From a virus, in the IMG/VR virus record IMGVR_UViG_3300012953_000001, positions 32,001 through 96,000 of that record: a DNA stretch of 64,000 nt, one strand, 5' to 3'. Shown in pieces: positions 403 to 21,764 of this stretch. A program made the position numbers and the translations under genes. Position 1 is the first letter of the stretch, and every line of letters begins with the position of its first letter. Below the pieces are notes generated by a model. The model was not told where the DNA came from and ran no database searches. It worked only from the letters and a program-made list of their open reading frames with translations.

Positions 403-1710
403 CTACCTCCCCACCCAAGTCCCTGGTGCTTCCGCCCACGTCCGACGACTCTGGCCCAAAGTGGCCGGGTTCCTCGTCGGAGCAGTTTGAAACCCCCTCG
501 GAATCGTCGGCCCGAAGGGATTTACCGGGGGGCCCTTTGCTCCACCACGTATTACCCCAGGCACCGTGGCGGTAGTATTACTAGGACCTTTTAGCGCTCC
601 GACCGCAGCCCTGTTCCTTTGCTGAAGGAGTGTTGATGTCCTTGATTGGGCAAGCATCCTTTCATACTCAGGGGATACAGGTGGCCCAGAGCCCTTTGGT
701 TGCTGTCCGGTGTATCTTGCTTTGGGAACAGCTTTGCCTACACGAGGTGAGCCAGGGCCAAGTCCTCGCAGAGTGTTAACCACATCTGCTTTGCGTAGAC
801 CACCCTCGATAGGGATATCCGCAACAGAAGTGTTCGCCCCGGGAACTCTTGCTCGCCAGCCAGCAGCACGCTCTCTTAAGGACCGCTTTAAGGGACTTTT
901 TTCTCTGAGAGCTTTAGCAAGCTGCTCTTTCTTAACGGTTCTAGAGCTATCCGGCCCAGCCTTAGTAACCCTCTTGCCTGTACTTCCCTTGGGGGAGACA
1001 TAGAAATCAACAATCTTAGGTTTGCCTGAAGGGGTGACCATTATGTTTGTGGGATTGGATCTATCCAGCGCGGCTCCAGTTCTAGACGCTCTGCCAGACA
1101 TCGCGTCCTTGATAGACTTTCCGCGACGACCCATCATGTAGCTATCGCCCGCCATCCCTTGCGATTTCCATAGCTGTTTTAGATGCTTCTTTGTGGCCCT
1201 AGGTAAGCCCCCTGAGCGGACGACTGTATCGTACATGTCTCGCCCAGGCACATACTCCGAGTGGTAGTACCTTCCACCAGTAGGCGTCTTATGGAGCTTA
1301 TTGCTCACCACCTTAGCGAAGTCCTGGTTTCCTCTAGACATCATATGCCCACCAGATTTCGCAGGTGTTGCTCTGAGCCTTCGAAGAACATTAAACTTTT
1401 CAGCCGCTTGCTGCTTGCTGAATATTGCCCCAGAGGGGTCCATCATTTTTCGAACTAGGACTCTGCTAGGCGCATCTTTAGCACCAATAACCAAGTGTGC
1501 TGGACCCTCGCTACCAGAACCAAGGAACCTTAGCTGGGAGCCTTGCTTAGAGGTCTTCAGTGCGCCTTTAGAGACTAATCGTGCTGCTAAAGACTCAGCC
1601 TTAGCGATGTTCCCAGCATTAACCAACGCCCGAATAGCTTTGAGCGCGGCTGTAGCTGCGACCTTTTCAAGCTCGGAACGGTAGTTGTCTATTAACATCG
1701 CTTGGCTCAT
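403..1710 (-). CDS. protein-kinase-fold protein with basic disordered C-terminus, putative virion cargo
   Basis: LGSGSEGPAHLV (Gly loop), VLVRK (beta3 Lys), SEYVPGRD (hinge), NPTNIMVTPSGKPKIVDF (catalytic loop N and DFx); N-terminal LEKVAA; GGAGGGG RBS. Confidence 0.65.
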   Translation of the reverse strand: MSQAMLIDNYRSELEKVAATAALKAIRALVNAGNIAKAESLAARLVSKGALKTSKQGSQLRFLGSGSEGPAHLVIGAKDAPSRVLVRKMMDPSGAIFSKQQAAEKFNVLRRLRATPAKSGGHMMSRGNQDFAKVVSNKLHKTPTGGRYYHSEYVPGRDMYDTVVRSGGLPRATKKHLKQLWKSQGMAGDSYMMGRRGKSIKDAMSGRASRTGAALDRSNPTNIMVTPSGKPKIVDFYVSPKGSTGKRVTKAGPDSSRTVKKEQLAKALREKSPLKRSLRERAAGWRARVPGANTSVADIPIEGGLRKADVVNTLRGLGPGSPRVGKAVPKARYTGQQPKGSGPPVSPEYERMLAQSRTSTLLQQRNRAAVGALKGPSNTTATVPGVIRGGAKGPPVNPFGPTIPRGFQTAPTRNPATLGQSRRTWAEAPGTWVGR

Positions 1711-1971
1711 CTACCCCTCCGTTGGCTCGAAGTCATCGCATAAAAAATCCGCCCTAACCGGAGAATCCCCGTGCTTAGAGCACATACCATCACCCTTCCA
1801 ACTCCGCCCAGGCCTGTACCCAAAGCTTTGGCAACCGTCACACGCCGCATCACTTCTGTCCGACACTCGGAGATTGGGCGGGCGCGACTGCGCTAACTTC
1901 TGGAGTTGTTTTTCTAGAGAAGAATCTAGAAAAGAGTCCAGGGGATTTTTTGGGTCTTTTGGCGTATACAT
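1711..1971 (-). CDS. small Cys-rich protein, HiPIP-like Cys spacing
   Basis: CDGC...C...C pattern, LQKLAQ motif; stop abuts next start; probable start MYTPK at 1971 overlaps the SNF2 3' end. Confidence 0.6.
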   Translation of the reverse strand: MYTPKDPKNPLDSFLDSSLEKQLQKLAQSRPPNLRVSDRSDAACDGCQSFGYRPGRSWKGDGMCSKHGDSPVRADFLCDDFEPTEG

Positions 1972-3631
1972 AGCGAGTCTCACCCTTATCATCTACGTAC
2001 TTGTAGAGATGCTTCTTTGTTTTGTAAGCGCCGTAAAACTGTTCCTGCTGCTTGAACTTTCTACTGGCAACGTTGTCCATCCACTGGTCGGTAGTCTGTG
2101 GTGTTTTCTTACCGATTAACTTACCGAAAAATCCCGGACGCTTACTCATTGGTACGGTGCTTTGGTAACGTCTGACCTTCACAACGCGGTTCTCTAAGGA
2201 ACGATGTTCTTGCCCACCGAGTCTTCTAGCTCTTCCTTCTGCCTGAAGAACTCTTTGTGGGTTGAAGTGCCCATCTAAAGACATGAACGCTGTTGAGTTT
2301 TTTAGGTCTAACCCCTCGGCCCCAGCACCGCTAATAACGATGACTCGCTTCTTCCCAGACTTATACGCCTGTACTCCTTCTTGTCTAGAGACAGCGGTTA
2401 CTTTTCCACCACCTACCTCTGTGCCTTTACCAACAAAAATTGAATGCGGAATGCCACGTTCTTTAAGGCCTGCCGCTAAGACATCAACTCCGCCGCGTAC
2501 CAAGTTCGAATATAGGACAACCTTATTGTCCTTCCTTTCTACTAGGTGGGCTTCCGTATCGTTTAGTAGCTTGTTCACTTTAGGGGTTCTTCGGGCAGAC
2601 TCAGCTAACGACACATCACTTCTCCCCGAAGCCAATGAGTTCGCTAATTGCCGTGCCTGAGACACCTGAGAGAAAAGAAGCTTGGCATCCCTAACTGTTA
2701 TGTTCGGGTCTTTTTTGGTGATGTATTTTTTCACCGGCCCAAGCTTATCTAAGGAAAGTTGGTAGAGGCGATACTGCTCTTTGGACATTGGGACTTCTAC
2801 AGTCTCAGTGTCCTTTCTGGGCATCGTCTTTCCTTTGAGGTCTTTTGTTTGGACGTAGTCAATTTTGGTGCCGGTTCTGTCTGACAGGTCCCCGACATTT
2901 TTCATCCCAACAATTTTCTTTTTGGAGTCGTTAAACCCGCGAGTAAACCCGATTGTTTGGGTGTACCTGCGCTTGAACTGCTTTGGGGACAGGTCTCTAC
3001 GTCCCTCACTTAGTGTTAGTAAGGTAGCTATCTCTGATGGGTTGTTATTGATTAAGGACGCGGTCAGGCCCATGAAGTTTGTGGCCATTGATCGGGCAAT
3101 GGCAAGCGCCTTAAACGTCGTAGCAGACTCATTTCGAGTCTTATGGAATTCATCAGCGATAATAGTATCAGCACCGCTTCTTCTCATAAACCCGACAGGG
3201 TCTCTTCGAAACATTGAATAGCTGATGACTGTGTAGTCTTTATCGGTCTCTTCTCCGGGACGGATATACCCAGACTTTTTAGCTTTCTCTGAAGAAGACC
3301 CTACTGCCTGCCAAGAACTGCTTGTGAACTTTTCGATGCCATTTTTAGCAAAGTTGTCACGCAAGCCAGAGGGCACAATCACGATTGCTTTTTTAGCTTT
3401 ACCTTCGTGCTTGAGTTTCTCAAACCCGTAGATACTTGTGACTGTTTTACCAGTGCCCATCTCGTGGGCTAGGATCATCTTCCCCTTGTTCGCAAACAAG
3501 CGATCAATCGCTGCTGCTTGATGCGCGTAGGGCTTAAACCACTCTTTCATTGAAGGTATACCGGTGCCGTGCGCAGGCTTATCTCCTGCTGCTTCAGCCG
3601 CCTTCTTGATTAAGTAGTCGCCAAGAGTCAT
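1850..3631 (-). CDS. SNF2/SWI2-family ATPase
   Basis: HEMGTGKT Walker A, IIADEFH Walker B, GLTASLINNNPSEI motif III, GAGAEGLDL motif V, FNPQRVLQAEGRARRLG motif VI. Confidence 0.9.
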   Translation of the reverse strand: MTLGDYLIKKAAEAAGDKPAHGTGIPSMKEWFKPYAHQAAAIDRLFANKGKMILAHEMGTGKTVTSIYGFEKLKHEGKAKKAIVIVPSGLRDNFAKNGIEKFTSSSWQAVGSSSEKAKKSGYIRPGEETDKDYTVISYSMFRRDPVGFMRRSGADTIIADEFHKTRNESATTFKALAIARSMATNFMGLTASLINNNPSEIATLLTLSEGRRDLSPKQFKRRYTQTIGFTRGFNDSKKKIVGMKNVGDLSDRTGTKIDYVQTKDLKGKTMPRKDTETVEVPMSKEQYRLYQLSLDKLGPVKKYITKKDPNITVRDAKLLFSQVSQARQLANSLASGRSDVSLAESARRTPKVNKLLNDTEAHLVERKDNKVVLYSNLVRGGVDVLAAGLKERGIPHSIFVGKGTEVGGGKVTAVSRQEGVQAYKSGKKRVIVISGAGAEGLDLKNSTAFMSLDGHFNPQRVLQAEGRARRLGGQEHRSLENRVVKVRRYQSTVPMSKRPGFFGKLIGKKTPQTTDQWMDNVASRKFKQQEQFYGAYKTKKHLYKYVDDKGETRYVYAKRPKKSPGLFSRFFSRKTTPEVSAVAPAQSPSVGQK

Positions 3632-4476
3632 CCCTGCACGCCCCTGTGCTCCGCGTCAGACTGGATTTTTTGAGAAGCCTTGCTGGCCACTCTGGATAAA
3701 GCAGCGCCGCCACCAAAAGCTGCCAGTCCGAGCCCAAAGCTCTTTGCTGAGCTTCTTTTGAAGAGCTTGTTCAAGAGTTTTTTATCAATGCTTTTAGGGG
3801 ATTTTTTCAAAAGCTCTTTAAGCTTCTCAATGCTTATGGGTTTAGCTTCTTTCTTTGCCTGCTTGATAAGCAGTGCATGTGCGAGCTTTTCATACCAAGA
3901 GCTACTCTGAACCTCGGACCAAGCTTCGTTGACCTTCTTCATCTTCTCAGGGTCACCGCCCCGGTCTGGGTGATGCTTGAAGGCTGTTGCCCTAAAATGC
4001 TTCTTTGCCTCTTTTTTGGTCTTAACGTTCTTTGGAATATTAAGTGTTGATAGATTATCCTTAATAGTGCTTCGCCCTGGGCTCGTGTACTGCCTACGAC
4101 CACCACCGCCAGCATTTCGCCATGTCTGTTCCCAGCTTTCGTCAGCAGCCTTTCGAAATCGCTTCGTGAACCTTGCCATGTCTACACCAAGGCCAGCGTA
4201 ACCACCGAGGGACGACCCAACACCAGCGCCAGTCTCTCCCGCGATCCTCCGGTCTAGATCCATACGAGTTCGATACTTCTTTGAAAGAAGCATCTTCATC
4301 TTGTGGACCGCTTTCTTTCCTACTGGGAGCTTACGTAACTTCCTGTCGAAAAGTTTCTTACCAAGATGCTTGCCCCCGAAATGCCCCGCAGTGCTGCCTG
4401 TAATGGTGCCAGCGTAATCTTTGGCTAATTGGCCAAGTTCTTTCGCAGCAGATGCTTTCGCTACTTTTTCATACAT
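3628..4476 (-). CDS. J-domain (DnaJ-like) protein with Gly-rich helices
   Basis: KKHFRATAFKHHPDRGGDPEKMKKVNEAWSEV contains the HPD motif; flanked by EKVA/EKLA/IKQA motifs. Confidence 0.85.
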   Translation of the reverse strand: MYEKVAKASAAKELGQLAKDYAGTITGSTAGHFGGKHLGKKLFDRKLRKLPVGKKAVHKMKMLLSKKYRTRMDLDRRIAGETGAGVGSSLGGYAGLGVDMARFTKRFRKAADESWEQTWRNAGGGGRRQYTSPGRSTIKDNLSTLNIPKNVKTKKEAKKHFRATAFKHHPDRGGDPEKMKKVNEAWSEVQSSSWYEKLAHALLIKQAKKEAKPISIEKLKELLKKSPKSIDKKLLNKLFKRSSAKSFGLGLAAFGGGAALSRVASKASQKIQSDAEHRGVQG

Positions 4477-4481
4477 AGTTT

Positions 4482-6308
4482 TTACTCCCGCCCCATCTTA
4501 GAGAGGCCAGCTAAAGCGCCAGCACCCAGCATGGGGGCTGCGGCAGCTTGAGAAAAGGTTAGCCTTGCAGGGGAAACCATCTGATTAATTCGTTTTTGTG
4601 CCCCACCTCGCATGGCCCCTCGCCCTGCTTCAGCAAGCCTTCTAGCCGCACCACCGGTCATTCGGCCAAAATCCCTAGACGCTGGCGAAACAAAAACATC
4701 CATGGCGTGTTCGCCAAGTCTTTGCTTCATCGTCTTTTTCATGCCAGGAAGGAAGGCTTCTCGGATGCCTTGGGCAGCGGATTGTAGGCCCTTTTTCTGT
4801 ACGTACTTAGACCTGACTGCGAGTCCTTTGATACCGCCGATCAGACCATGCGACCCTAACGCAGCAAGGGGTAAAGCAGCTAATCCGCCCGTAGCAGTTG
4901 CAGCCGCACCCAGACCAACGCCGCCTCCAAGAAGGGCTAGATCTACACCAAGACCCTTCTTTTTAGCATCAGCTTGTAAGGCTTTGGGTAACCCTTGAAC
5001 TGCCTTACCGCCCTGAGACAACGCACCGCGACCTCCGTGCATTAACTGGTTGTACAGCCCGGACATCCCTGTTCGTTTAAAAATCTTCTTCTTGCCTACC
5101 GCCATGTCAATAGCATCAGGAAGCTGATTCCACACAGGAACGGGTTCCCCGCGCTTACTCCAGCGCATTGTGGGCGTAATGTACCTCTTGGCAGTGAGGA
5201 GGGCGGTCTCTCTGTACGCGGGTGGAACCCCACGGAGAAGTTTACCAATCTCGATACCCATCTGCCTGTTATATTTTAGCTCTGGGGCAAGCATTCCTAG
5301 GCCAAGACCTGCGCGGGTACCAACCCCCCGACGACCAGCTAGTCCTTCGCGAATCCCCATCGCCAATTGTTTGGTTTTAATTGTATTGGTGGCCCCCAGA
5401 ACCTTAGAGCCCCCGGGAACTTTGGACAGCCCTCTGCCCATCTTCCCGTACCCCATGGCCGCTTTGGTCGCGATGTGTCCCGCGCCAACCATTGGCAAAC
5501 CATGTGCAAGCATGTCCACAATAGATTTTCCAAGAAAAGCCGCGCCACCCAAACCGGCAGCAGCAGTAGCAGACCCCTCTTTTTTGAGAGCTTTCATCGC
5601 GCCATCAACAGCCGCAGACAAAACCAGACCGCCTAGAACTCCACCAGCGGCACCCCCACCTGCTGCTGGAAGAGCTTTCTTAAATACCTGTGTAGTCAAT
5701 TTGCCACCACTCATACCTTTTTGCAGAGCAACGCTTTCCGCTCCACGAGAGAGGGCACCAATTGCTGCGCCAGAAAGTGCGGGGGTTAGGTATTTCGCTA
5801 ACGCCCCGCCCCCCTTCTTACTCTTCTTCCTGCCCGAAGCAATGCTCAAGCCTAGAAGAATCGCTGAAGGGGTCTTATACGCAATGCGGGTCCCTCCGAT
5901 AATCGCGCCCCGTTTTGCGGATAAAGACTTCCCAAGGCCCCCAGACCTAGCGGATTTGTACCCCTCAATAAAACCCTTTTGTCCTTGATACGCAGCAGCA
6001 CTAGACCCCAGTAGGGCTAGTCCCGTTCTTTGTTTTGATTTGTCTTTTGATGTTACATAGTCGAGGCCTTTAAGAAATAGCGGAGCAGAGGCTACGCCGA
6101 CAGCCCCACCAATAGCCCTTCCGCTACCTCGACCTTTTAACCCACTGACGAGTAGGTCTTTGAGTTTGGTTTTGCTCCCTCGCAACTTTGCTTCAGTTGC
6201 GTGCTCAATGGAGCCTTTTGGAAGATCCCCTAGAACCGCCTTGAGCCCAAAGGCGGGAGCGGTCTTAAGCATGGTATCAAAATATTTTGGTTTGTTATCT
6301 TTCGCCAT
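4482..6308 (-). CDS. Gly/Ala/Lys-rich putative internal head or ejection protein with hydrophobic segments
   Basis: 608-aa ORF with several GxxxG-rich hydrophobic stretches, within the virion operon. Confidence 0.6.
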   Translation of the reverse strand: MAKDNKPKYFDTMLKTAPAFGLKAVLGDLPKGSIEHATEAKLRGSKTKLKDLLVSGLKGRGSGRAIGGAVGVASAPLFLKGLDYVTSKDKSKQRTGLALLGSSAAAYQGQKGFIEGYKSARSGGLGKSLSAKRGAIIGGTRIAYKTPSAILLGLSIASGRKKSKKGGGALAKYLTPALSGAAIGALSRGAESVALQKGMSGGKLTTQVFKKALPAAGGGAAGGVLGGLVLSAAVDGAMKALKKEGSATAAAGLGGAAFLGKSIVDMLAHGLPMVGAGHIATKAAMGYGKMGRGLSKVPGGSKVLGATNTIKTKQLAMGIREGLAGRRGVGTRAGLGLGMLAPELKYNRQMGIEIGKLLRGVPPAYRETALLTAKRYITPTMRWSKRGEPVPVWNQLPDAIDMAVGKKKIFKRTGMSGLYNQLMHGGRGALSQGGKAVQGLPKALQADAKKKGLGVDLALLGGGVGLGAAATATGGLAALPLAALGSHGLIGGIKGLAVRSKYVQKKGLQSAAQGIREAFLPGMKKTMKQRLGEHAMDVFVSPASRDFGRMTGGAARRLAEAGRGAMRGGAQKRINQMVSPARLTFSQAAAAPMLGAGALAGLSKMGRE

Positions 6309-6627: not shown

Positions 6628-6640
6628 ACTTACTGACTCC

Positions 6641-7420: not shown

Positions 7421-7428
7421 AAGTTTTA

Positions 7429-9420: not shown

Positions 9421-9432
9421 TATTTATACCCC

Positions 9433-14300: not shown

Positions 14301-17300
14301 TCCGCAAGCTTGATATGCGACCAGTTCTTTCCGCCAGGACCTCCAGTAATGGTCTCGTCAAACAAACCATTCTTTTCAGGCTTCAGGTCCTTTCCTCTGA
14401 TGACCCTACTGCCGTCCTTAATTTCCCCATTAGACATTTCAACAATCTGTTTGTCCGTTAGTGGGGAAACAATCAGCCCATTACCATCCTTCTCAACATT
14501 CAGCCCTAGCGCACTCATGTAGGCTAGGAACTTCTCGTAAGCAAACGAGGGCTTCGGTGTTGGAAGCACTGCGCCTGTCTGAACCGCAGTCCAAACCTCG
14601 TCCTGCTGCTTGTCTCCCTTATAGGTTAATGCGTCCCGAATGTTCGCCGTAGCTCCATGCGCGAGCATTGCGTACAAACCAAGTTCACCAAACCGCTGTG
14701 CGCCTCCGCTCTTGCCACCGCTTTTTGGAACCAAGTTCGCGTCATAGTCGTAGCCATACCCATGTGATCTGGCGCTAAGCTTCTTATCGACTTGGTGCAT
14801 AAGCTTGAGGAAGTACTGATGTCCCACCAAGACTTTACCGAGGCTCTTCCCGGTTTGCGGGTCGAACAACTCACGCGTCTCAGAGAGCCCAGCCCCCTTT
14901 AAAGCATTATCTACAACATCACGGTAGCCCATATCACGCTCATGCTCTTTTACATGAACGGTCTTAGGGCCTGCTTTGGTCTGGATAACCCGAGTATGCG
15001 CCTTAACGCGGACAATCTTCTTCCTATCATCTGACTGAAAGTTCTCGACTGCGTACGGTTCGCCTTGGGTGTAAGCAACATTCCCAAGGCTTGTTTCCAG
15101 AACCTGCCCCGGATTGATTCGCCCAGGAACACCCGAGGGGTTTAAGACAATATGTAGTGCGTTGCCTTCTGCGTCCTTGGGCATCTCTTCATCAGGTATT
15201 ACTGCGGTAATAACACCCTTGTTTCCATGCCTACCCGTAAGCTTGTCTCCAATATCTGCTTGCTCTTCAGTCTTAACGTAGACAACGATCTCTCGACCAT
15301 TTCTAACTACGTCTGTCACGGTTCCGCGATAGGGCTTGTCCCAAGTCAGTGACTTGTTTTTATACGGTCGGACCAAAGACTTGTGAATGCCTTTGAGTAG
15401 AATCTGCTCCTTAGAAGGCTCCGTCTTTTGCAGAACGGTGACAATGGTATCGCCGGGGTCAACAACTTGACCCTTTTTGATCACACCATCTTCATCCAGC
15501 TTCACGGAATTCTCATCAGATATGGAGCCGGGGTAGTTTGCGCGAAACTTCTTTAGCCCAACACCCATACCCTTATCTATGTAAGACCGCTCTTTATGTA
15601 GGTGGTTACTAGTAAGCTTCTTGGAGGCACTCTCACTAATTACAATTCCATCCTCAAACACAAGACCCTTGTAGGGCAAGTACCCAACACGAAGGTTTGT
15701 CCCCAGGGAAAGCGTGCCGCCCCGAGTGAAGTTTGTGTCTGCGATTATTTGACCAGAGGAAACTTTGTCCCCCTTTTTCACCAGCGGATTACTGCTAATA
15801 AAAGCTTTTTTATCGTTGAGCGGGAAGTTGTCATAAAGCTGAATTTCGTGCTTCTTTCCTGCCTTGTCTTTAACCACAACTCTGGACGATGAAATGGAGT
15901 CCACAAATCCAGACACAGGTGAAGGATGCGAGGTAAACCGACCAACGATCTTTTCCCAAGTAGCGTAGTTAGGGTCCGGGTTTCCAGAAACAACCTGCAC
16001 CAGGGGCTGCTCCGGGTCCTTGAGGGAGATAGCCTGCTCAATATGTCTGGTCGCCATACCAGCGCGATTCGCTTGGTCAGATGGAAGAAACGGGACAAGA
16101 TTAGCGGTAATAGAGAACATCTGTTTTGGGGACTGTAGTACATAGTCCACATCAGAAGACGACACACGACTAGGGTCTCCACCACCTACCGGAATAACAA
16201 CAGACGTGTCTTTTTTGGGCTTAGGGGTTTTACCAGAGAAGTCGTACTGGTCTGAGAAAGATACATTGCCTAGAGTTAAATCTGCTGGAGACTTATCGTT
16301 GTATTTACCGGCCTTTACGTCAAAGACACGGATTGTAGGCGTTGTTCCTTTTTTACGGACCCCAAGAGACAGGTGCCCACTAATGCCAGAACGCTTACCC
16401 TCTGGGGTATGTACCGGATCAATAAACCCTAAGTAACTAGAGTCAATCAGCTTAGCCTCATCAGATATCGCACTGTCGTTCTGGATACCTCCGGTTCCCA
16501 TGATGGTGGTTCTTAAGAAGCCTCCAACCATATCGACAGGGTTAACTTGGGTTGTTTGTTGAGACAGCGATGTGGAAGTAAAAAATGCCTTAACGGGCAC
16601 ATTGAAAATATCAGAAGTAACAATGGCGCGGACGTTGTCCCTGCGGTCCAAATTGTTTGTCATCTTGTAGGTGATGCGCCGCTTGGAGTTGGCTATACGC
16701 TCTGGGATGTGGTCATTAATCGCCCAGAGTTCCTTGAACTGTAGCGCATCTCGGTTGTCTACCTTGTCATCACCCTTGTTAATGTTTAGGAGCTTCTCAG
16801 ACGAAGCCAGTAATGCTCCGCCTGTAACAGAGGAGAAGCCTTTGCCTAGAGTGATCTTGGTGGTGTCTTCAAGAAGCTTGGTTTTTTCAAGTGCCTCTTG
16901 AATTACTGGCACCGCCTCCGAGTCGGTCTTCGCGCCCGCTCTAGGATTGAGTGCTTTTGATAGCTTTACAAGTTCGCCGCGCTTCTTTGACTTCAGGGCG
17001 CTTGTATAGAGTTCCGTACCCCAGGTCTTCTGGATATTCTCGTCTTTTACACCTAGTGCCTGTAGCACCGGGAGTAGCTGGATATTCGATGTCCCGTAGG
17101 ACATGAGGAAACGCCTCTTGGTGGGGTCAAACCCAAGACGAAATCCTCTTCCTTCTGCCAGATTGAACTGGGACTCAAGCTCACCGTTTGCCTTACGCCT
17201 AGCGTAAACACCAGACTTCAGACGCCACTGGTTGTCTGCTTGGTACTCCGTTCCATCAACTATATAGCTATACCGCCTAGTGATCTTCGGAAGGTTCAGA

Positions 17301-17572
17301 ACTTTCAACTTCTTGGCAGAGTTAACAACCTTACCAGTCTCGTTGTTGACCAGATCGAAATTACCAAAAATACCCTGCGCCCAAGTTCTGCCACGAAGCC
17401 GTGCTTTCTTCTGTGCGCCAATGTCGTCAAGGTCTAGGGGGTCTCCCACATAGATATCCTTGGCAACAAGGGTGTGCTTCTTTCCCACCAGGGGAAAGAA
17501 CTTTTTGATTTCGTTTATTGTCCCGTCTTCGAGAGTTTCCATTACCCTCTGGGGATCTAAAACATTAGACAT
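11300..17572 (-). CDS. rpoBC: single-chain DNA-directed RNA polymerase, fused beta-beta' subunits
   Basis: beta motifs DPVHTPEG, PFLPSDQANRAGM, GDKLTGRHGNKGVI, YFLKLMHQVDKKLSARS, GAQRFGEL; beta' motifs PVLPPLFRP, RSVIVP, NADFDGD (13301-13321), CSKCYG, AIGERGTQLSMKAFHTGG; GGAGGG RBS. Confidence 0.97.
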   Translation of the reverse strand: MSNVLDPQRVMETLEDGTINEIKKFFPLVGKKHTLVAKDIYVGDPLDLDDIGAQKKARLRGRTWAQGIFGNFDLVNNETGKVVNSAKKLKVLNLPKITRRYSYIVDGTEYQADNQWRLKSGVYARRKANGELESQFNLAEGRGFRLGFDPTKRRFLMSYGTSNIQLLPVLQALGVKDENIQKTWGTELYTSALKSKKRGELVKLSKALNPRAGAKTDSEAVPVIQEALEKTKLLEDTTKITLGKGFSSVTGGALLASSEKLLNINKGDDKVDNRDALQFKELWAINDHIPERIANSKRRITYKMTNNLDRRDNVRAIVTSDIFNVPVKAFFTSTSLSQQTTQVNPVDMVGGFLRTTIMGTGGIQNDSAISDEAKLIDSSYLGFIDPVHTPEGKRSGISGHLSLGVRKKGTTPTIRVFDVKAGKYNDKSPADLTLGNVSFSDQYDFSGKTPKPKKDTSVVIPVGGGDPSRVSSSDVDYVLQSPKQMFSITANLVPFLPSDQANRAGMATRHIEQAISLKDPEQPLVQVVSGNPDPNYATWEKIVGRFTSHPSPVSGFVDSISSSRVVVKDKAGKKHEIQLYDNFPLNDKKAFISSNPLVKKGDKVSSGQIIADTNFTRGGTLSLGTNLRVGYLPYKGLVFEDGIVISESASKKLTSNHLHKERSYIDKGMGVGLKKFRANYPGSISDENSVKLDEDGVIKKGQVVDPGDTIVTVLQKTEPSKEQILLKGIHKSLVRPYKNKSLTWDKPYRGTVTDVVRNGREIVVYVKTEEQADIGDKLTGRHGNKGVITAVIPDEEMPKDAEGNALHIVLNPSGVPGRINPGQVLETSLGNVAYTQGEPYAVENFQSDDRKKIVRVKAHTRVIQTKAGPKTVHVKEHERDMGYRDVVDNALKGAGLSETRELFDPQTGKSLGKVLVGHQYFLKLMHQVDKKLSARSHGYGYDYDANLVPKSGGKSGGAQRFGELGLYAMLAHGATANIRDALTYKGDKQQDEVWTAVQTGAVLPTPKPSFAYEKFLAYMSALGLNVEKDGNGLIVSPLTDKQIVEMSNGEIKDGSRVIRGKDLKPEKNGLFDETITGGPGGKNWSHIKLAESIPNPVFEKGVRSLLGITGKEYDGIIDGKLGFNAEGDVVASGDGVSTGPSAIVAALKGLDLDKELAEAKEKIKTVRRNDLDKVNKKIKYSLMLKNNNISAAEAYVLDHVPVLPPLFRPITAMEGGDLNIDGVNMLYRDIALLNKKLNEAKGVLPDSEITKLREDLYSATEALMGVQTMTQGGLTTDGQPRPPGILHILSGRSSPKQSYFLQRLVDRRQDISMRSVIVPNMELHLDELGLPRKGAMKIYRPFVVRELVKMGYTPLQAREEVDKKSSLANKALDIAVSKRPVLFKRDPVLHKFGIMAFKPKLHDESAIHIHPLVVGGFNADFDGDTMAVFVPVSQEAVDEAQKMMPSKNLFNPATGRVMYQPTLEGQLGLYLLTRWGKGSNNRFKNAKEAIDSAKSGETSMTDVVQVGAIKTTAGRLLFNSKLPSKIQSEEFLKDPKAVVDKGRLQSVLRDLATKTPSEFANTADKIKDLGFGHAYNIGFSFGLSDFLPLREIREKHMAKAAKQESVIRKQVSMNMLSQEAADLKVVKLYTDASDAMSKEARGLLDKDGNKLRAMEKAGVKPSWAQLKQMIISPMLVENAQGRVIPVPISRSYSEGLKSSDYWVTTSGARSGLIKKVQSVQKPGALNKQIANTTISYIVSNDDCGTTKGIALPVTDSDLVDRFTAKPISSGGLKVSANTLITPNLLSKFKSAKVDRVIARSPLKCELSKGLCSKCYGVTDDGTVISKGTNIGLIAGTAIGERGTQLSMKAFHTGGVAGGGSSVVGGIDRVSQLLKMPETLAHAATLSPMAGEVKSVKESPVGGYDLVIGTQDAYIPGNLRVTVKKGQKIRKGQPISSGIINPHDLLEKTNIETVQRYLADEIHKVYASEGIKKRNVEVVTKALTNLGKVVDPGDSPKFIRGDYISLSHAGSLNKTMKNPIQTVPVLRGVETLPLDQTTDWLARLQYRKLKETFIRAANEGWESDIHGLHPAPGLAYSAEFGHKDKSKGGPY

Positions 17573-17581
17573 TAATCCCTC

Positions 17582-17621
17582 CGTGCAGACACGGCCTATT
17601 AGTTAGGTATAAGAACTATGA
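17582..17621 (+). promoter_or_regulatory. putative phage promoter, copy 2 (overlaps a CCGTG-CAGA-CACGG hairpin)
   Basis: CGTGCAGACACG at 17582 and GGTATAAGAACTATG at 17606-17620. Confidence 0.6.
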
Positions 17622-17806
17622 TGGGCAATGAGGCCCTCACCTTTAAAGCAACTCAAACAAAAGGAGTTTATGTTGTGATCAGTAATCGGAAGAAGTTGTA
17701 CCATGCACGTTCTAATTATAGAAAGATGCCTCGTGGCGCATTCTGCAAAAATAGTTGTGAAGACCTTGCAGACGCGGTTGAGGAATCTCTTAGTTCGGGG
17801 AAGTAA
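17618..17806 (+). CDS. small hypothetical protein, possibly leaderless (start 17618 or 17621)
   Basis: 62-aa ORF directly after the promoter motif, no RBS. Confidence 0.6.
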   Translation: MMGNEALTFKATQTKGVYVVISNRKKLYHARSNYRKMPRGAFCKNSCEDLADAVEESLSSGK

Positions 17807-17809
17807 CCC

Positions 17810-18028
17810 TTGAAGATTAAAAAGCCTATTAAATGCTTTATCAAACAGGGCTACTGTCGCGAACCAAAGAACTGCGGGCAGTGCAGCTACTTCCTTGAAA
17901 AAAGAGGCGGTGTCTTCTGGGTATGTTCTAAATGCCTTACGCATGATGACGACACCTCTAGCTTCTTCCAAAAAGGTCGATGTGATCGCTGTGATAACTT
18001 CGCAGCAATCCTGGTATGTGTAGATTAA
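17810..18028 (+). CDS. small Cys-rich Zn-binding-like protein
   Basis: 72 aa with 9 Cys including three CxxC pairs; TTG start. Confidence 0.65.
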   Translation: MKIKKPIKCFIKQGYCREPKNCGQCSYFLEKRGGVFWVCSKCLTHDDDTSSFFQKGRCDRCDNFAAILVCVD

Positions 18029-20058
18029 ATCTGCGCACCATCTGGACCTGTTCTGGGTGGTTTCTGCTCCGGTAAAGGTCTCATGGGTTTAACCCCCTGG
18101 CCTGATAGAGCATTGTTTACAAGCATGTATAGGTCTGGGTTGCTGGCTCTTAATTGGGCCAGCACCCTATACCTATCCACTTCATTCATTTTTTGTATCT
18201 CAGACGTGAGCTTTTTAGCCTGCGCGAACAGGTCTACCATTGGGCTCTGCCCCATTTGGGTAGGACTCTGTTCTGCCCCTTGGACTACGCCACCAGCCTG
18301 CTGCGCCTGTGGTGCTGCTTGTTGCTGCGCCTGCGCGGCATTCGGGTCTTGTTGCTGCGGGGCATCGCCTTGCTGTTGGGGTGGTGGTTGTTCCCCTCCG
18401 CCTTGTTGAGGTTGTCCCTGCCCCTGTCCTTGAGCGCCTTGCTCTTGTCCGGGAGCGCCCTGCTGCTCTTGTCCGGGAGGAGGACCATACTGCTGCTGCA
18501 TCTGCATCTGGTTCTCTTGCTGCATATTCTGCGACTCGATTTGATACCGAGTCTGTACAAGCATTGACTCTCCCTGAGCCTCTGTTTGTCGAATTTGCTG
18601 CTCCCGCTGGGTCAAGCCAAACATCTCTGCTTCTTTGTTGATCAGTTCAATCTCGTTGTCGAAATTGAAGTCTCGGGACTGCAAGAACGTGCGGCGACTG
18701 ATCATACCAGCGTTGGCCAAGTTCATATCAAAAGATGCCCGTTGAATGTCATCAGCCATCTTGAATGGTTTGAACTTCAACTTAATCTTGGGGAGGTTCA
18801 GGAAGTGCGCAACGCGGTCTCTAATGAACTCAACACACCGAAGCATATCCTGTCGGTTTCCTAAGAATTCATTCTCAAGAGCCCGAAGATTAACAGAGGC
18901 ACCGGAATACTGGGCCTCTCCGTAGAAGAATCCTGTGGGAACTCCCATACCTGCAATAATTTGATCACTGTAAATTCTCAGTTCTTGGTGTAGTAGTAAC
19001 GAACGGCCTTGGCCACCAACCATCTGGTAACCAACGGGAACGGGCATAACCGGTATGTGGTTATTGTCTTGTCGCCACCTACGGATTTGCCCCTGAACCT
19101 CTTTCTGCCAATCTTGTAAATTGATTTGTGAGTAAGGGTTGTTTCCGTCAGCGGAGATTTGCGGGAAGAGTACTCGCATTGGAACAACGTGCTCCATGGC
19201 GACAGCTTCCTGCGCTTTTCGTAAGACCTGTAAGAAGAATATGTCTTTGAGTACAGGTAGGATTAGAGGAGCGCCCCAACCACTGTCCGATGGGGATCTT
19301 GATATGGAAGGGCGTCGGCTATGGAAAATCTTATCGCTATCTAAAAGAATCGACTTCTTTTTACGTAGCGCATCAATAAATGCCTGGGGAATCGTCTCAA
19401 GGACATCTGGCTTACCCAGAGTAATGTCGTTCTTAAGCCCTCGGGGCATCTTGTAGTAGTACAAGTACTTGCCGGTAATCTCATTATATTTAATAATAAT
19501 GTGCTTTGGATTCCAGCGAATGAGGGAGATCTTAACTGCGGCTTTAACAGGTTCGTCTGTAACTCTGGCGGGTCCGAAGTGACCGCATTGTGGGCAGTCT
19601 AAGTGGAACTGGAGGCCCTTCCATTTATACCCCGTGCTATGTGCGGGACCATCCCAACCACAACTAGTGCACTTGAGTACTTTGGTAAACGGGAACGCGA
19701 TAGAGATGAAGGAGTTCCCGTAAGTATACCGGTCCAAGTTTGCTTCAATCAGAAAAGACCGGAGCAAGAACTGGTTCTCAAACAGTTCCTTGTACATACC
19801 GACAACGCCTTCGTTATCGTCTTCGTAAACCAAGTCAGTAATGGGGTAGGTAGCCAGCTTCTGGGTTACAGCGTTAACCAGGGGGTTGGTAAGCTGGTAA
19901 TAATGGCACCAGTCAAAGCACTCTTTAATTGTCTTTGGAATGTAGTTCTTGGCAACATCAAAGAAAGGACTCGGGTAAAACCCATCTGGGCGACCAACGG
20001 ACTTCGCCCTAGCTCCGCTAGAGGATAACCCATATCGTTGTGAACCATAATCTGCCAT
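18025..20058 (-). CDS. portal-like protein with Zn-finger insertion and Gln-rich C-terminal region
   Basis: NPLVNAVTQKLATYPIT, LDRYTYGNSFI, GWGAPLILPVLK and QIIAGMGVP match portal architecture; CTSC...CPQC insert; poly-Q/G tract. Confidence 0.75.
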   Translation of the reverse strand: MADYGSQRYGLSSSGARAKSVGRPDGFYPSPFFDVAKNYIPKTIKECFDWCHYYQLTNPLVNAVTQKLATYPITDLVYEDDNEGVVGMYKELFENQFLLRSFLIEANLDRYTYGNSFISIAFPFTKVLKCTSCGWDGPAHSTGYKWKGLQFHLDCPQCGHFGPARVTDEPVKAAVKISLIRWNPKHIIIKYNEITGKYLYYYKMPRGLKNDITLGKPDVLETIPQAFIDALRKKKSILLDSDKIFHSRRPSISRSPSDSGWGAPLILPVLKDIFFLQVLRKAQEAVAMEHVVPMRVLFPQISADGNNPYSQINLQDWQKEVQGQIRRWRQDNNHIPVMPVPVGYQMVGGQGRSLLLHQELRIYSDQIIAGMGVPTGFFYGEAQYSGASVNLRALENEFLGNRQDMLRCVEFIRDRVAHFLNLPKIKLKFKPFKMADDIQRASFDMNLANAGMISRRTFLQSRDFNFDNEIELINKEAEMFGLTQREQQIRQTEAQGESMLVQTRYQIESQNMQQENQMQMQQQYGPPPGQEQQGAPGQEQGAQGQGQGQPQQGGGEQPPPQQQGDAPQQQDPNAAQAQQQAAPQAQQAGGVVQGAEQSPTQMGQSPMVDLFAQAKKLTSEIQKMNEVDRYRVLAQLRASNPDLYMLVNNALSGQGVKPMRPLPEQKPPRTGPDGAQI

Positions 20059-20067
20059 CTGTTACTC

Positions 20068-20736
20068 CTACGGAACCAGCTTCTTTAGCTGCGTGAGTAA
20101 TGCCCTAGAGGAAGATTCAAGGAAGTCTTTCACAGATGTCACCTTCATTAGCTGAACATCATCCTCGTTCTTACCATTAAATGTGGGTTTCCTTCGCATC
20201 TTCACCGCTTTTCGTATACTTTCTTGCCGCTGTCCACCCACGAATTTCGTTAGGTGTTTATTGCAGGGCTCCAAAGGTCCCGGGCCATAAGCCAGCCCGT
20301 GATCTAGCATAACAGCAGCTACATATTTATACACCTCATTAGATATATTTAAGTCTTCTTTTACTTGCGCCAATATATCTAGTGCTAATGCTGCCCTGTG
20401 CGGGGTGGGTTTTTGTATCAGGTCAAACCTTGGAGTTAGCCCTACAAAACCCATAGATACTTTCTCAAAGGTTTCCCACCGCTGGTACGGCTCATCAGAA
20501 ACGTGACACGTTCTAATGGCCTGAATCTTATTCTTGTTGATCTCTGAGATTGTGGTGTTCCACGTTCTCGCGATTTCCACCCAACAAGTTTCAGGCTCCC
20601 ACCCCAAATAATCTGAGCCGAACTCCTTCAGGAGCATCAAGTTCAGGATAAGCGGGTGCGTCTCACGGTTAGTAAACGCGTGTTTTGGTACGGTTGGTCC
20701 GCCTATTTGTGCAGCACTATCAGTTGTTACGTTCAT
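20068..20736 (-). CDS. hypothetical virion-module protein (222 aa)
   Basis: ORF coupled to neighbours; no recognisable family. Confidence 0.7.
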   Translation of the reverse strand: MNVTTDSAAQIGGPTVPKHAFTNRETHPLILNLMLLKEFGSDYLGWEPETCWVEIARTWNTTISEINKNKIQAIRTCHVSDEPYQRWETFEKVSMGFVGLTPRFDLIQKPTPHRAALALDILAQVKEDLNISNEVYKYVAAVMLDHGLAYGPGPLEPCNKHLTKFVGGQRQESIRKAVKMRRKPTFNGKNEDDVQLMKVTSVKDFLESSSRALLTQLKKLVP

Positions 20737-21718
20737 CGATCATCCGAGCAATAACCTGCTTGTGCGTATCTGGTAGGCTGTCAAGTACGGCCACCGGATC
20801 AGTGGTAAACTGCGTGGTGAAATCCTCACCAAAGGAGCTAGTTAACCTATCTGACCCGCCATTATCAACCCAAGACTTGATGTCATTGGGTTCGTACTCT
20901 CTTCCACCAATCTCAAGCGGTCGTGCAACGGACGCATTCTTCTCTACCGAAGTACCAAAAACTGTCTGGTACGGGTCCGGTATTACTCGGTTATACAGAT
21001 GTGTGACTCCGTGTCGGATATCGAAATCCGTTAAATCCTCGGCCAACTGGTCTGGATCTGCGGAGGCGGACTTAACCATTAATGCCTCCAACTCTGCCAC
21101 GCCGTCTCCGCCAAGAACTGCCATTCTTCGCGTGTCGATTCCCACACGGAAATCCGACCCAAGCTCAGCGCGACCGTAGTCCTGCATATCATCTGTTAGT
21201 AGGTCGTTGAACACGCCTGCCTCTTTGACCTGCATCATCAATCGGCGTTTCCCTCGCGGGGAGCAAGAGTCAAAAGCATCCTTCATGACTTCCCACTGAC
21301 TGTCACCGCTCACGCCAAACAAGGACTCCAGCCCTCTATCTTCGGCCTCACCGCTGTAACCAAGTTCCATAGCGGCGGTTTTGGTAAGGTCCTCTGGGGG
21401 TGTAAATCCAAAAGAAACCAACGCTTCGCTTAATTTCTGCGCTGCCTCTTTTTGCAAGGGCTCTGGGAGGGCTCCCCCATGCTCAGAAAAGTACAGTGCG
21501 GAGGCAATGGTATTCCCAGCGTCTACAATAGGTAGTTTACGCGCTTGACCCTGCGGAGTATCTACAACAAGGGCGTAGTCACCGTCTTTAGTGGCGTTAC
21601 TATTCGAAAGGTCTGCGGCTACCTTAACAATATGGGGGATCCCTCGCTCAGAAAACTCTCTGCGAAGTAATAATCCACCATCATCGTAATGGTCTAGAAC
21701 TGCTGGTAATTGATTCAT
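20720..21718 (-). CDS. putative internal head protein with six K-x-A motifs
   Basis: VKVAA, QKEAA, TKTAA, VKEAG, VKSAS, EKNAS; start reassigned to MNQLP (GGGAG RBS). Confidence 0.7.
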   Translation of the reverse strand: MNQLPAVLDHYDDGGLLLRREFSERGIPHIVKVAADLSNSNATKDGDYALVVDTPQGQARKLPIVDAGNTIASALYFSEHGGALPEPLQKEAAQKLSEALVSFGFTPPEDLTKTAAMELGYSGEAEDRGLESLFGVSGDSQWEVMKDAFDSCSPRGKRRLMMQVKEAGVFNDLLTDDMQDYGRAELGSDFRVGIDTRRMAVLGGDGVAELEALMVKSASADPDQLAEDLTDFDIRHGVTHLYNRVIPDPYQTVFGTSVEKNASVARPLEIGGREYEPNDIKSWVDNGGSDRLTSSFGEDFTTQFTTDPVAVLDSLPDTHKQVIARMIDERNN

Positions 21719-21724: not shown

Positions 21725-21764
21725 TCCCACAAGGGCTTGAATGTTTTTGGTATAAGCAAATCGG
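21725..21764 (+). promoter_or_regulatory. putative phage promoter, copy 3 (replication operon)
   Basis: GGTATAAGCAA at 21749-21759, with CCA at the position where other copies have GCA; lies in the divergent intergenic gap. Confidence 0.45.

What the first reader, a model, noticed from the sequence alone, without database searches (positions are those of the whole stretch)
403..21718. Candidate virion-packaged transcription and takeover kit: single-chain RNAP, SNF2 ATPase, kinase and J-domain protein in the head operon
Seen: a fused cellular-type RNAP, a SNF2 ATPase, a kinase-fold protein and a J-domain protein are co-oriented with the portal and spike genes. The SNF2, kinase and J proteins each carry a K-x-A motif within their first 20 residues. 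Known: N4, phiKZ-like and crAss-like phages inject virion RNAPs, and poxviruses package SF2/SNF2-like ATPases with their RNAP for early transcription. Inference: this phage may eject an RNAP with an ATP-dependent DNA translocase, a kinase and an Hsp70-recruiting co-chaperone to start transcription from the GGnATAAG promoters. I know of no described phage system with this combination.
Basis: partly seen in the sequence, partly recalled or inferred. Interest (0 to 1): 0.85.

Follow-up and report, generated by a model that had tools for sequence, protein, structure and literature searches.

The report
Phage RNA polymerase module in head genes
A 178-kb uncultured phage keeps its only RNA polymerase (one fused chain) and an SNF2 ATPase among its head-assembly genes. 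In a cultured relative these proteins are abundant in purified virions, so they are probably injected to start infection. The kinase-like and J-domain genes beside them are optional extras that some complete relatives lack.

Summary
On the minus strand they run portal (18025-20058), fused beta-beta' RNAP (11300-17572), a spike-like protein, J-domain protein (3628-4476), SNF2 ATPase (1850-3631) and a kinase-fold protein (403-1710). Terminase, prohead protease and capsid genes follow.

The genome is complete and has one RNAP and one weak sigma. The bare K-x-A motif and the GGnATAAG octamer are not significant alone. Their extended forms are: hydrophobic-[E/D]-K-x-A occurs 41 times against 8 expected, mostly at N-termini of late-block proteins. 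A roughly 45-nt promoter carrying GGnATAAG has about 19 copies.

Published virion proteomics of Salmonella phage Arash (about 30% identical RNAP) found the RNAP, the SNF2 homologue and a sigma at peptide densities like portal and capsid.

RNAP and SNF2 are syntenic in every close relative checked. One complete relative lacks the J-domain gene, and another lacks both the J-domain and kinase genes.

Verdict: a probable virion RNAP-sigma-SNF2 core with variable accessory proteins, not an obligate four-part kit. It is a new variant of a known strategy. First-stage readers noted similar layouts in related genomes.

The parts
20720..21718 (-). First gene of the leftward head block (332 aa from the ATG at 21718). 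It carries 7 K-x-A sites.
   Evidence: It is 74-78% identical in relatives L030 and L031.
20068..20736 (-). 222-aa protein of unknown function, upstream of the portal gene.
   Evidence: It is 69-71% identical in relatives.
18025..20058 (-). Portal protein (677 aa).
   Evidence: 33% identical to Arash gp204, annotated portal, E 2e-89. 80% identical in close relatives.
17606..18028 (+). Opposite-strand cassette between the RNAP and portal genes. It holds a GGTATAAG promoter (17606-17613), a 62-aa ORF (17618-17806) and a Cys-rich 72-aa ORF (17810-18028).
   Evidence: The plus-strand 72-aa ORF is 65-69% identical in two relatives. The overlapping minus-strand ORF 17603-17971 is 37% identical in one relative and absent in the other.
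11300..17572 (-). Single-chain beta-beta' multisubunit-type RNA polymerase (2090 aa). It is the only RNAP in the genome.
9924..11300 (-). 458-aa protein. A gpV/gp5-like central-spike fold is a lead only.
   Evidence: Atlas neighbours are Phage_base_V, Gp5_C and Phage_spike. 61-73% identical in five relatives.
9433..9924 (-). 163-aa protein. The start is set by the relatives' MPLA start.
7429..9420 (-). 663-aa protein with 17 K-x-A sites (3.8 expected). Candidate heavily processed internal head protein.
   Evidence: The FEKTA motif at K14 is conserved in relatives.
6641..7420 (-). 259-aa conserved protein of unknown function.
   Evidence: 72-77% identical in relatives.
6295..6627 (-). 110-aa conserved protein of unknown function.
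4482..6308 (-). 608-aa basic Gly/Ala/Lys-rich protein with glycine-zipper-like hydrophobic segments. Candidate ejection or membrane protein. The N-terminal K-x-A-P is conserved.
3628..4476 (-). J-domain protein (282 aa). The HPD motif is at 169-171, with Gly-rich flanks and a conserved W-Y-E-K-L-[A/G] just after the J domain. It is an accessory gene.
   Evidence: Absent from G001, G002, Arash and D181.
1850..3631 (-). SNF2-family ATPase (593 aa) with intact motifs. It is a core partner of the RNAP gene.
   Evidence: 76-83% identical in all six close relatives checked. Homologous to Arash gp217, E 1.7e-35.
403..1710 (-). Protein-kinase-fold protein (435 aa). It has two N-terminal helices carrying L-E-K-V-A, a minimal Hanks-type core and a basic, poorly modelled tail. 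It is an accessory gene.
   Evidence: Absent from G001, Arash and D181.
96..361 (+). Second opposite-strand cassette: a GGCATAAG promoter (96-103), a Shine-Dalgarno site and a 78-aa ORF (125-361), lying between the kinase-like gene and terminase.
   Evidence: The plus-strand ORF is 65% identical in L023, against 55% for the overlapping minus-strand ORF 1-399. The promoter copy is conserved in L010.
21749..21756 (+). GGTATAAG promoter core heading the rightward replication block (plus-strand genes 21804-38134).

Best explanation
Region 403-21718 is the portal-proximal part of the late head-morphogenesis block of a complete 178-kb tailed phage of the RNAP-encoding lineage that includes Salmonella phage Arash.

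Proposed mechanism:
- The phage's only RNAP, a beta-beta' fusion, is made late and loaded into the prohead. A phage sigma-like factor and the SNF2 ATPase probably go with it.
- These proteins are ejected with the DNA. They then transcribe early and replication genes from phage-specific promoters, roughly tGCAaA, about 16 nt, tttaGGnATAAG.
- The genes between RNAP and SNF2 are most likely internal head or ejection proteins. They are the spike-like protein, the 663-aa multi-site protein and the Gly-rich 608-aa protein.
- Many proteins of this block carry hydrophobic-[E/D]-K-x-A, often in the first 30 residues. The same motif occurs near the N-terminus of the capsid protein, in the candidate prohead protease and many times in scaffold-like proteins. 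I read it as the cleavage or targeting signature of that protease.
- The kinase-fold and J-domain proteins are lineage-variable accessories. They may ride along as cargo, but they are not required parts of the machine.

Shown here: gene identities, order and synteny, the single RNAP, and the motif and promoter statistics.
Taken from a paper on a relative: presence of RNAP, sigma and helicase in virions.
Inferred: packaging in this phage, ejection, promoter use by the phage enzyme, and cleavage at K-x-A.
For: Gene identities.

One RNAP and one weak sigma in a complete genome with terminal repeats.

Head-module context:
- Terminase lies just beyond the window start (26% identical to Arash gp1).
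- The candidate prohead protease hits phrog_18299 at 1.8e-09 and is 41% identical to Arash gp222.
- The capsid protein hits phrog_2522.

Synteny of RNAP through SNF2 in L006, L019, L023, L027 and L029.

Arash virion mass spectrometry (PMC10585845), as unique peptides / spectra:
- RNAP gp206 128 / 3516; gp216 40 / 1210.
- SNF2 homologue gp217 38 / 1148; sigma gp10 24 / 467.
- Portal 32 / 877; capsid protein 30 / 1333.
- Metabolic enzymes and other helicases, 2-11 unique peptides.

Motif:
- [LMFIV][ED]KxA occurs 41 times against 8.0 expected (z 11).
- With Y and W also allowed at the first position, there are 44 sites, 21 of them in the first 30 residues.
- N-terminal sites occur in 17 of 74 late-block proteins against 3 of 127 others (Fisher p 4.6e-06).
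- It lies at K25 of the capsid protein and at K29, K229 and K259 of the protease. The 202-aa acidic protein has six sites.
- It is also enriched in Arash (28 against 9.3) and in the D181 locus (19 against 3.2), clustered in head genes.

Promoter:
- About 19 long-motif copies, almost all on the plus strand before plus-strand genes.
- None lies before the RNAP gene.
- The GGTATAAG core recurs about 30 times before Arash early-region genes.
- The bipartite form is strand-biased in G001 and G002, 5 against 0 each, with controls of 0-1.
Against: - There are no virion data for this phage or its close relatives.
- The Arash preparation yielded 116 proteins, including ribonucleotide reductase. Its authors say contamination by highly expressed proteins is possible.
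- The RNAP itself has no hydrophobic-[E/D]-K-x-A site.
- Arash gp217 has no N-terminal site and was reported at 100% coverage. The motif is therefore not needed for that protein's virion association.
- The L-E-K-x-A-A N-terminus is a consensus of the whole kinase-like family, including members in unrelated phage contexts. It could be a structural feature of that family.
- With one RNAP and one detectable sigma, it is unclear who transcribes the late block. No late promoter was found.
- D181 has the RNAP but no detectable SNF2 homologue.
Confidence: 0.55

Rival explanations
1. Not packaged. The RNAP, sigma and SNF2 are intracellular enzymes for middle or late transcription that merely happen to be encoded among head genes. 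The host RNAP starts the infection, and the Arash virion signal is carry-over of abundant proteins.
For: The Arash authors raise this possibility themselves. Their list of 116 'virion' proteins includes ribonucleotide reductases, NAMPT and RNA ligases. The RNAP lacks the head-module motif. A single RNAP must in any case also work inside the cell.
Against: Unique-peptide density of RNAP, gp217 and sigma (0.066-0.10 per residue) equals that of portal and capsid (0.055-0.098). It is 5-20 times that of the metabolic enzymes (0.004-0.014); I computed this from the paper's Table 2. The portal-RNAP adjacency is kept across about 30% protein identity. No early-type promoter precedes the RNAP gene. The promoter core is shared by phages of very different hosts, which fits recognition by the phage enzyme.
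Confidence: 0.2
2. One reading: an obligate four-part injected kit, in which RNAP, SNF2, kinase and J-domain protein act together to launch transcription and take over the host.
For: All four genes are co-oriented within 17 kb. All four are syntenic in L006, L019 and L029. The kinase-like protein has a strict, conserved L-E-K-[V/T]-A at K16, and the J protein has Y-E-K-V-A at K4.
Against: The complete relative G001 lacks both the kinase-like and J genes anywhere in its genome. The complete relative G002 lacks the J gene. Arash and D181 lack both. The J protein's N-terminal motif is not conserved. In this clade the kinase's catalytic-loop Asp is displaced or replaced (D, E or Q at N-6), so activity is uncertain.
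Confidence: 0.1
3. The J-domain protein, and possibly the kinase-like protein, are not cargo. They are late-expressed helpers. The J protein would recruit host DnaK to fold or assemble the very large head and RNAP proteins or to act at the membrane. The kinase-like protein would modify host or phage proteins inside the infected cell.
For: J-domain co-chaperones occur sporadically in jumbo phages and were predicted to aid folding and assembly (PMC7824862). The J protein has Gly-rich, membrane-like segments and a weak DjlA-like hit. Both genes are dispensable in relatives. Distant members of the kinase family sit outside head modules.
Against: Both genes lie inside the head or internal-protein block and carry the block's motif. 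W-Y-E-K-L-[A/G] directly after the J domain is invariant. That position is where a maturation cut would free the domain.
Confidence: 0.35

Closest known systems
Salmonella phage Arash (OQ632216; PMC10585845) and Vibrio phages D181/D148/D69
   Same: Genome size of about 180 kb. Portal, a small gene and a cellular-type RNAP are adjacent. Arash has an SNF2-type helicase next to the RNAP and a phage sigma. The prohead protease is homologous (41% identity). The hydrophobic-E-K-x-A motif clusters in head genes. Arash shares the GGTATAAG promoter core.
   Different: RNAP identity is only about 30%. In Arash the RNAP is in two genes separated by an inserted block, and in D181 it is in three pieces with homing endonucleases; here it is one 2090-aa chain. 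Arash and D181 lack the kinase-like and J-domain genes. D181 has no detectable SNF2 homologue.
mReC, the RNAP-encoding Caudovirales lineage (Weinheimer and Aylward 2020, PMC7481178)
   Same: Tailed-phage contigs from aquatic metagenomes with beta and beta' that standard cellular RNAP models recognise.
   Different: The passages I searched by keyword contain no mention of virions, sigma factors or helicases. I did not test clade membership by phylogeny.
phiKZ-like and SPN3US virion RNAP, ejection proteins and prohead protease
   Same: A multisubunit-type RNAP is packaged in the head with a bolus of ejection proteins. The prohead protease trims many head proteins at a short motif. An Snf2-type helicase co-varies with the RNAP genes (PMC7824862; abstracts of PMC7411985 and PMC10052503).
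   Different: Those phages have two RNAP sets, each split into four or five pieces, and no sigma. From my own knowledge, their cleavage motif ends in Glu (A/S/G-x-E). Here there is one fused RNAP, a sigma-like factor and a Lys-x-Ala motif.
Coliphage N4 virion RNAP and ejectosome
   Same: A very large polymerase is made late, packaged, and expelled with neighbouring ejection proteins to transcribe early genes (PMC13434306 abstract).
   Different: From my own knowledge, the N4 enzyme is a T7-like single-subunit polymerase that uses hairpin promoters. Here the enzyme is a two-barrel cellular-type polymerase with a bipartite sigma-style promoter.
T4 internal proteins with a capsid-targeting sequence cut by gp21
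   Same: A short N-terminal leader is shared by unrelated cargo proteins and removed by the prohead protease. The same site is present in the capsid and scaffold proteins (PMC9026906 and PMC9958956, listed and not read; the rest is my own knowledge).
   Different: The motif differs (L/I-x-E in T4), and cleavage here is only inferred.
Hanks-type bacterial Ser/Thr kinases (PknA, PknB)
   Same: The family profile aligns the catalytic loop and the DFG region with PknA (E 6.1e-10). The fold search returns only kinases.
   Different: The domain is minimal, about 190 aligned residues, with TM about 0.4. No Pfam model matches any of 39 family members. The window protein has a one-residue shift at the catalytic Asp.

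Membership tests
Multisubunit (two-barrel) RNA polymerase, beta-beta' fusion | Beta catalytic-barrel signature and beta' NADFDGD motif in one open frame | tested here: met
   GRHGNKG at residue 781 and NADFDGD at 1418 in a 2090-aa ORF with no stops.
Multisubunit (two-barrel) RNA polymerase, beta-beta' fusion | Matches to the curated rpoB and rpoC domain models | tested here: met
   Pfam Rpb2_6 6.6e-57, Rpb1_2 1.1e-26 and Rpb1_5 6.6e-23. NCBIfam rpoC 4.3e-164, rpoB 7.9e-118 and fused beta/beta' 1.2e-173; all are below the equivalog cut-offs, so this is a divergent member.
Virion-packaged phage RNAP system (N4, phiKZ or crAss-like strategy) | Polymerase present in purified virions | not testable with these tools
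   Only indirect evidence: the homologues in Arash are abundant in virion mass spectrometry (PMC10585845).
Virion-packaged phage RNAP system (N4, phiKZ or crAss-like strategy) | Polymerase gene lies in the late or structural module, not behind an early promoter | tested here: met
   It lies between portal and terminase. No GGnATAAG-type promoter precedes it on its strand.
Virion-packaged phage RNAP system (N4, phiKZ or crAss-like strategy) | Early genes carry phage-specific promoters and are transcribed without the host RNAP | tested here: inconclusive
   A conserved long promoter exists and its core is shared with Arash. Which enzyme uses it was not testable.
SNF2 family ATPase | SNF2-related N-lobe plus Helicase_C lobe with Walker A, Walker B and motif VI | tested here: met
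   PDB sequence hits are ISWI, SMARCA5 and Rad54.
RapA-type RNAP-recycling SNF2 | Specific similarity to RapA, including its RNAP-binding N-terminal domains | tested here: not met
   RapA is not among the 34 PDB sequence hits. The protein starts about 25 residues before the ATPase core, leaving no room for RapA-like N-terminal domains. A RapA-like role is not excluded.
J-domain (DnaJ/Hsp40) co-chaperone | J-domain model match with the HPD tripeptide | tested here: met
   29.3 bits against a cut-off of 27.8; 31.3 bits in the genome search. HPD is invariant in three homologues.
Hanks-type protein kinase | Kinase fold: N-lobe sheet, C helix, catalytic and Mg-binding loops | tested here: met
   AF2 model pLDDT 84.2 and pTM 0.82. 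All listed Foldseek PDB hits are kinases, probability 1.00 and E from 5e-07. The profile hits PknA at 6.1e-10.
Hanks-type protein kinase | Gly-rich loop, beta3 Lys, catalytic-loop Asn and DFG Asp | tested here: met
   E68, N222 and D235 are invariant across 95 family members, and K88 is at least 90% conserved.
Hanks-type protein kinase | Catalytic Asp five residues before the loop Asn | tested here: not met
   The family consensus has D-x-x-x-x-N. The window protein has D at N-6, and close relatives have E or Q there. The invariant D202 might substitute; this is untested.
Head proteins processed by a prohead protease (T4 or phiKZ style) | The same short motif in the capsid N-terminus, the protease itself, scaffold-like proteins and cargo leaders | tested here: met
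Head proteins processed by a prohead protease (T4 or phiKZ style) | Demonstrated cleavage at the motif | not testable with these tools
   This needs N-terminal or semi-tryptic peptide mapping of virions.

The most novel reading that the evidence does not exclude
A fourth kind of virion RNA polymerase. It would be a bacterial-type single-chain beta-beta' enzyme loaded into the capsid with its own sigma factor and an SNF2 ATPase. It would then be ejected to read a conserved sigma-style promoter (GGnATAAG core) shared by phages of unrelated hosts. Optional cargo, a minimal Hanks-type kinase and a J-domain protein, would be addressed to the head by an N-terminal hydrophobic-E-K-x-A leader that a Lys-x-Ala-specific prohead protease removes.
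Probability: 0.3. Interest if true: 0.75.

Novelty: new variant of a known kind. Interest (0 to 1): 0.55.

Why it matters
Three kinds of virion RNA polymerase are known. N4 has a T7-like enzyme, phiKZ-like phages have split multisubunit enzymes without sigma, and crAss-like phages have a very divergent two-barrel enzyme.

A packaged polymerase that looks bacterial, is a single chain and appears to use a sigma factor would be a simpler, sequence-readable model of host-independent transcription. Its promoter is easy to recognise and recurs in a cultured Salmonella phage, Arash, so the idea can be tested at the bench now.

The Lys-x-Ala motif would give a way to predict capsid cargo from sequence in this whole phage group. 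The kinase-like family has 133 clusters and no Pfam model, so it is an unannotated phage protein family.

Removing the kinase and J protein from the core also tells experimenters which genes to prioritise.

Tried and rejected
- Pfam and PHROGs gave nothing for 11 of the 16 proteins in the block.
- Single-sequence PDB searches for the kinase-like, spike-like, portal and protease proteins gave nothing usable.
- The first AF2 run of the kinase-like protein used a 3-sequence alignment and failed (pLDDT 36.8). The 95-sequence alignment was needed.
- Pfam on 39 members of the kinase family gave no hit.
- Sigma70_r2 and Sigma70_r4 Pfam searches of the genome found nothing. The sigma is seen only through NCBIfam (1.7e-06) and through similarity to Arash gp10.
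- A strict TGCRNR...GGNATAAG pattern found only 7 sites. The upstream element is looser than that.
- No shared late promoter was found in the few intergenic gaps of the minus-strand blocks.
- I rejected the minus-strand ORFs 21782-22090, 17603-17971 and 1-399 as probable artefacts that overlap better-conserved plus-strand genes.
- One script call was empty by mistake.
- No complex prediction was sent. The RNAP exceeds the size limit, and I make no binding claim that a pass would change.
- No sequencing-run search was made, because metagenome reads cannot give expression timing.

Full report
**What is there.** The window is bases 32001-96000 of a complete 178,429-bp virus record with direct terminal repeats. 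Region 403-21718 is almost entirely minus-strand coding. Reading in the direction of transcription, the genes are:
- a 332-aa protein (20720-21718);
- a 222-aa protein;
- the portal (18025-20058; 33% identical to Arash gp204, E 2e-89);
- the RNAP (11300-17572);
- a 458-aa protein whose atlas neighbours are gpV/gp5-type spikes (a lead only);
- a 163-aa protein;
- a 663-aa protein;
- 259-aa and 110-aa proteins;
- a 608-aa basic Gly/Ala/Lys-rich protein;
- the J-domain protein (3628-4476);
- the SNF2 ATPase (1850-3631);
- the kinase-fold protein (403-1710).

Just beyond the window start the same strand continues. It carries terminase, four small proteins, a 561-aa candidate prohead protease (phrog_18299, 1.8e-09; 41% identical to Arash gp222), scaffold-like acidic proteins and the capsid protein. 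'In the head operon' is therefore a fair description.

There is one correction. Two short plus-strand cassettes, each behind a GGnATAAG promoter, interrupt the block at 96-361 and 17606-18028. Their plus-strand ORFs are better conserved in relatives than the overlapping minus-strand ORFs.

**The four named proteins.**
- *RNAP.* It is a 2090-aa fusion with strong rpoB and rpoC model hits and both catalytic signatures. It is the only RNAP in the genome; there is no second Rpb1 match and no T7-type match.
- *SNF2.* It has all the ATPase motifs. Its solved relatives are ISWI, SMARCA5 and Rad54, not RapA.
- *J protein.* It passes the Pfam threshold narrowly. HPD is invariant in three homologues.
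- *Kinase.* It had no Pfam, PHROG or PDB hit by itself.
  - A profile search found 133 clusters of relatives.
  - A 95-member profile hits PknA (6.1e-10), PknB and Chk1 across the catalytic and DFG loops.
  - The AF2 model of residues 1-270 (pLDDT 84.2) returns only protein kinases from the PDB.
  - The fold claim therefore holds. Activity is uncertain, because in this clade the catalytic Asp sits one residue off and is E or Q in close relatives.

**K-x-A.** The literal observation is true but weak. K-x-A in the first 20 residues occurs in 34 of 201 proteins against 20 expected. Genome-wide it is not enriched.

The extended motif hydrophobic-[E/D]-K-x-A is another matter:
- It occurs 41 times against 8.0 expected (z 11).
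- With Y and W also allowed at the first position there are 44 sites, and 21 of them lie within the first 30 residues.
- Seventeen of 74 late-block proteins carry it N-terminally, against 3 of 127 others (p 4.6e-06).
- It sits at K25 of the capsid protein, at K29, K229 and K259 of the candidate protease, six times in a 202-aa acidic protein and 17 times (loose form) in the 663-aa protein.
- It is also enriched in Arash and D181, where it clusters in head genes and lies at matching positions in the capsid and protease proteins.

This is the pattern expected of a prohead-protease site that doubles as a cargo leader, as in T4 and phiKZ-like phages. Cleavage itself is inferred.

Among the four proteins the evidence is uneven:
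- The kinase-like protein has a strict, conserved site (L-E-K-[V/T]-A).
- SNF2 has a loose conserved one (Y-L-[I/T]-K-x-A).
- The J protein's N-terminal site is not conserved, but W-Y-E-K-L-[A/G] right after its J domain is.
- The RNAP has none.
- One caution: L-E-K-x-A-A is the consensus N-terminus of the whole kinase-like family, even in phages without this RNAP.

**Promoter.** The octamer alone is not significant in the window (12 against 7.9). About 19 of the 38 genome copies share a roughly 45-nt motif: tGCAaA, about 16 nt, tttaGGnATAAGa-t-tG. Nearly all of these lie on the plus strand before plus-strand early-type or replication genes.

In the window they sit at 96, 17606, 21749 and 38236. 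None precedes the RNAP or any head gene. The bipartite form is strand-biased in two complete relatives. The GGTATAAG core recurs about 30 times before the early-region genes of Arash, a Salmonella phage whose RNAP is only about 30% identical. Conservation across such different hosts argues that the phage polymerase and sigma read it. The passages I searched in the Arash paper do not mention promoters.

**Evidence on packaging.** The only direct data are from Arash (PMC10585845). Unique peptides and spectra were:
- RNAP gp206: 128 peptides, 3516 spectra (the highest count);
- gp216: 40 / 1210;
- the SNF2 homologue gp217: 38 / 1148;
- sigma gp10: 24 / 467;
- portal: 32 / 877;
- capsid protein: 30 / 1333.

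Per residue, the first four (0.066-0.10 unique peptides) match portal and capsid. They exceed ribonucleotide reductase, NAMPT and two other helicases (0.004-0.014) by 5-20 fold; this is my arithmetic on the paper's table. The authors note that contamination is possible, and they list 116 proteins.

The other points are consistent with packaging. The gene sits in the late module, there is a single RNAP, and no early promoter precedes it. On balance I put packaging of the RNAP at about 65% and of SNF2 at about 60%.

**Synteny test.**
- RNAP, the spike-like protein, the 163-, 663-, 259-, 110- and 608-aa proteins and SNF2 are present in the same order in all five related contigs that cover the block. 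Identities are 45-86%.
- The J gene is present in three of those contigs and absent from two.
- The kinase-like gene is present in four and absent from one.
- Whole-genome searches of two complete relatives confirm this. G001 (173,034 bp) has neither gene. G002 (181,199 bp) has the kinase but no J domain. The own genome served as a positive control.
- Arash has only the SNF2 homologue. D181 has none of the three.

So RNAP plus SNF2 is a conserved pair in this clade, and the other two genes are accessory.

**Comparison with known systems.** The strategy of a virion RNAP plus ejection proteins plus protease-trimmed cargo is known from N4, phiKZ/SPN3US and crAss-like phages. An Snf2-type helicase that tracks the phiKZ-group RNAP has been described, with a RapA-like role proposed (PMC7824862). 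Cellular-type RNAP in tailed phages was described as mReC (PMC7481178); the passages I searched there mention neither virions, sigma nor helicases.

What differs here:
- one fused chain;
- a sigma-like partner that is virion-associated in Arash;
- a bipartite promoter shared across hosts;
- a Lys-x-Ala motif instead of the Glu-ending motifs of T4 and phiKZ;
- two unusual optional neighbours.

I therefore class it as a new variant of a known kind. First-stage readers of this scan noted the same layout and motif in this genome and in four related genomes. Those notes were leads, and I tested the motif and the sigma lead here.

**Verdict.** The genes are real, but the two short motifs are meaningful only in extended form, and the operon is interrupted. 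An RNAP-SNF2(-sigma) virion core is likely. The four-part kit is not conserved, and the roles of the kinase and J protein remain open.

Noticed in passing
window 17606-18028 (+): Between the RNAP and portal genes there is an opposite-strand cassette. It has a GGTATAAG promoter with ATG four bases downstream, a 62-aa ORF, and a Cys-rich 72-aa ORF with several CxxC pairs that looks like a zinc ribbon. The 72-aa ORF is 65-69% identical in two relatives. Transcription from here would run antisense into the portal gene.
   Followed up: partly
window 96-361 (+): A second opposite-strand cassette (promoter, Shine-Dalgarno site, 78-aa ORF) lies between the kinase-like gene and terminase. It is conserved with its promoter in one relative (L010/L023) and absent in L006. 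The RNAP-to-kinase block is thus bracketed by two early-type promoters that point against it.
   Followed up: partly
window 21782-22090 (-) versus 21804-22082 (+): The 102-aa minus-strand ORF is probably spurious. A plus-strand 92-aa ORF with a GGAGG ribosome site follows the GGTATAAG promoter at 21749 and opens the rightward replication block.
   Followed up: partly
window 11300-17572 (-), residues about 1060-1100: At the beta/beta' junction, the beta' N-terminal zinc-binding segment seems to be replaced by a short Gly-rich linker before the conserved H-I-x-L-A element. No Cys cluster is visible there.
   Followed up: no
L003, L004 and L001 (Salmonella phage Arash): About 30 copies of GGTATAAG followed by (t/a)aa(a/g)gtGTAa precede the minus-strand early-region genes of Arash. 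The passages I searched in the Arash paper mention no promoters. This is a ready-made candidate promoter set for a cultured phage.
   Followed up: partly
proteins P0005-P0137 (family of window 403-1710): This is a phage protein family of 133 clusters at 50% identity with a minimal Hanks-type kinase core. The consensus N-terminus is L-E-K-x-A-A, and no Pfam model matches any of 39 members tested. Some members lie next to tail genes or among early genes of unrelated phages.
   Followed up: partly
L002 (Vibrio phage D181) 19959-27941: The homologous RNAP is split into three ORFs, with homing-endonuclease genes and small ORFs between them. In Arash it is split in two by an 8-gene inverted block. 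The single-chain form here may be the uninterrupted state.
   Followed up: no
window 38681-64000 (-): There is a run of giant ORFs (2579, 666, 1496, 2194 and about 2400 aa). The last is 26% identical over 323 residues to the Arash virion protein gp13. They are probably virion or ejected proteins.
   Followed up: no
L015:15243-16121 (-) (genome 111243-112121): The only sigma-like gene (292 aa; SigB/F/G-type hit at 1.7e-06; 33% identical to Arash gp10) has a roughly 55-aa non-sigma N-terminus with F-L-K-Y-A-G at K13. It is flanked by two proteins with strict motif sites.
   Followed up: partly
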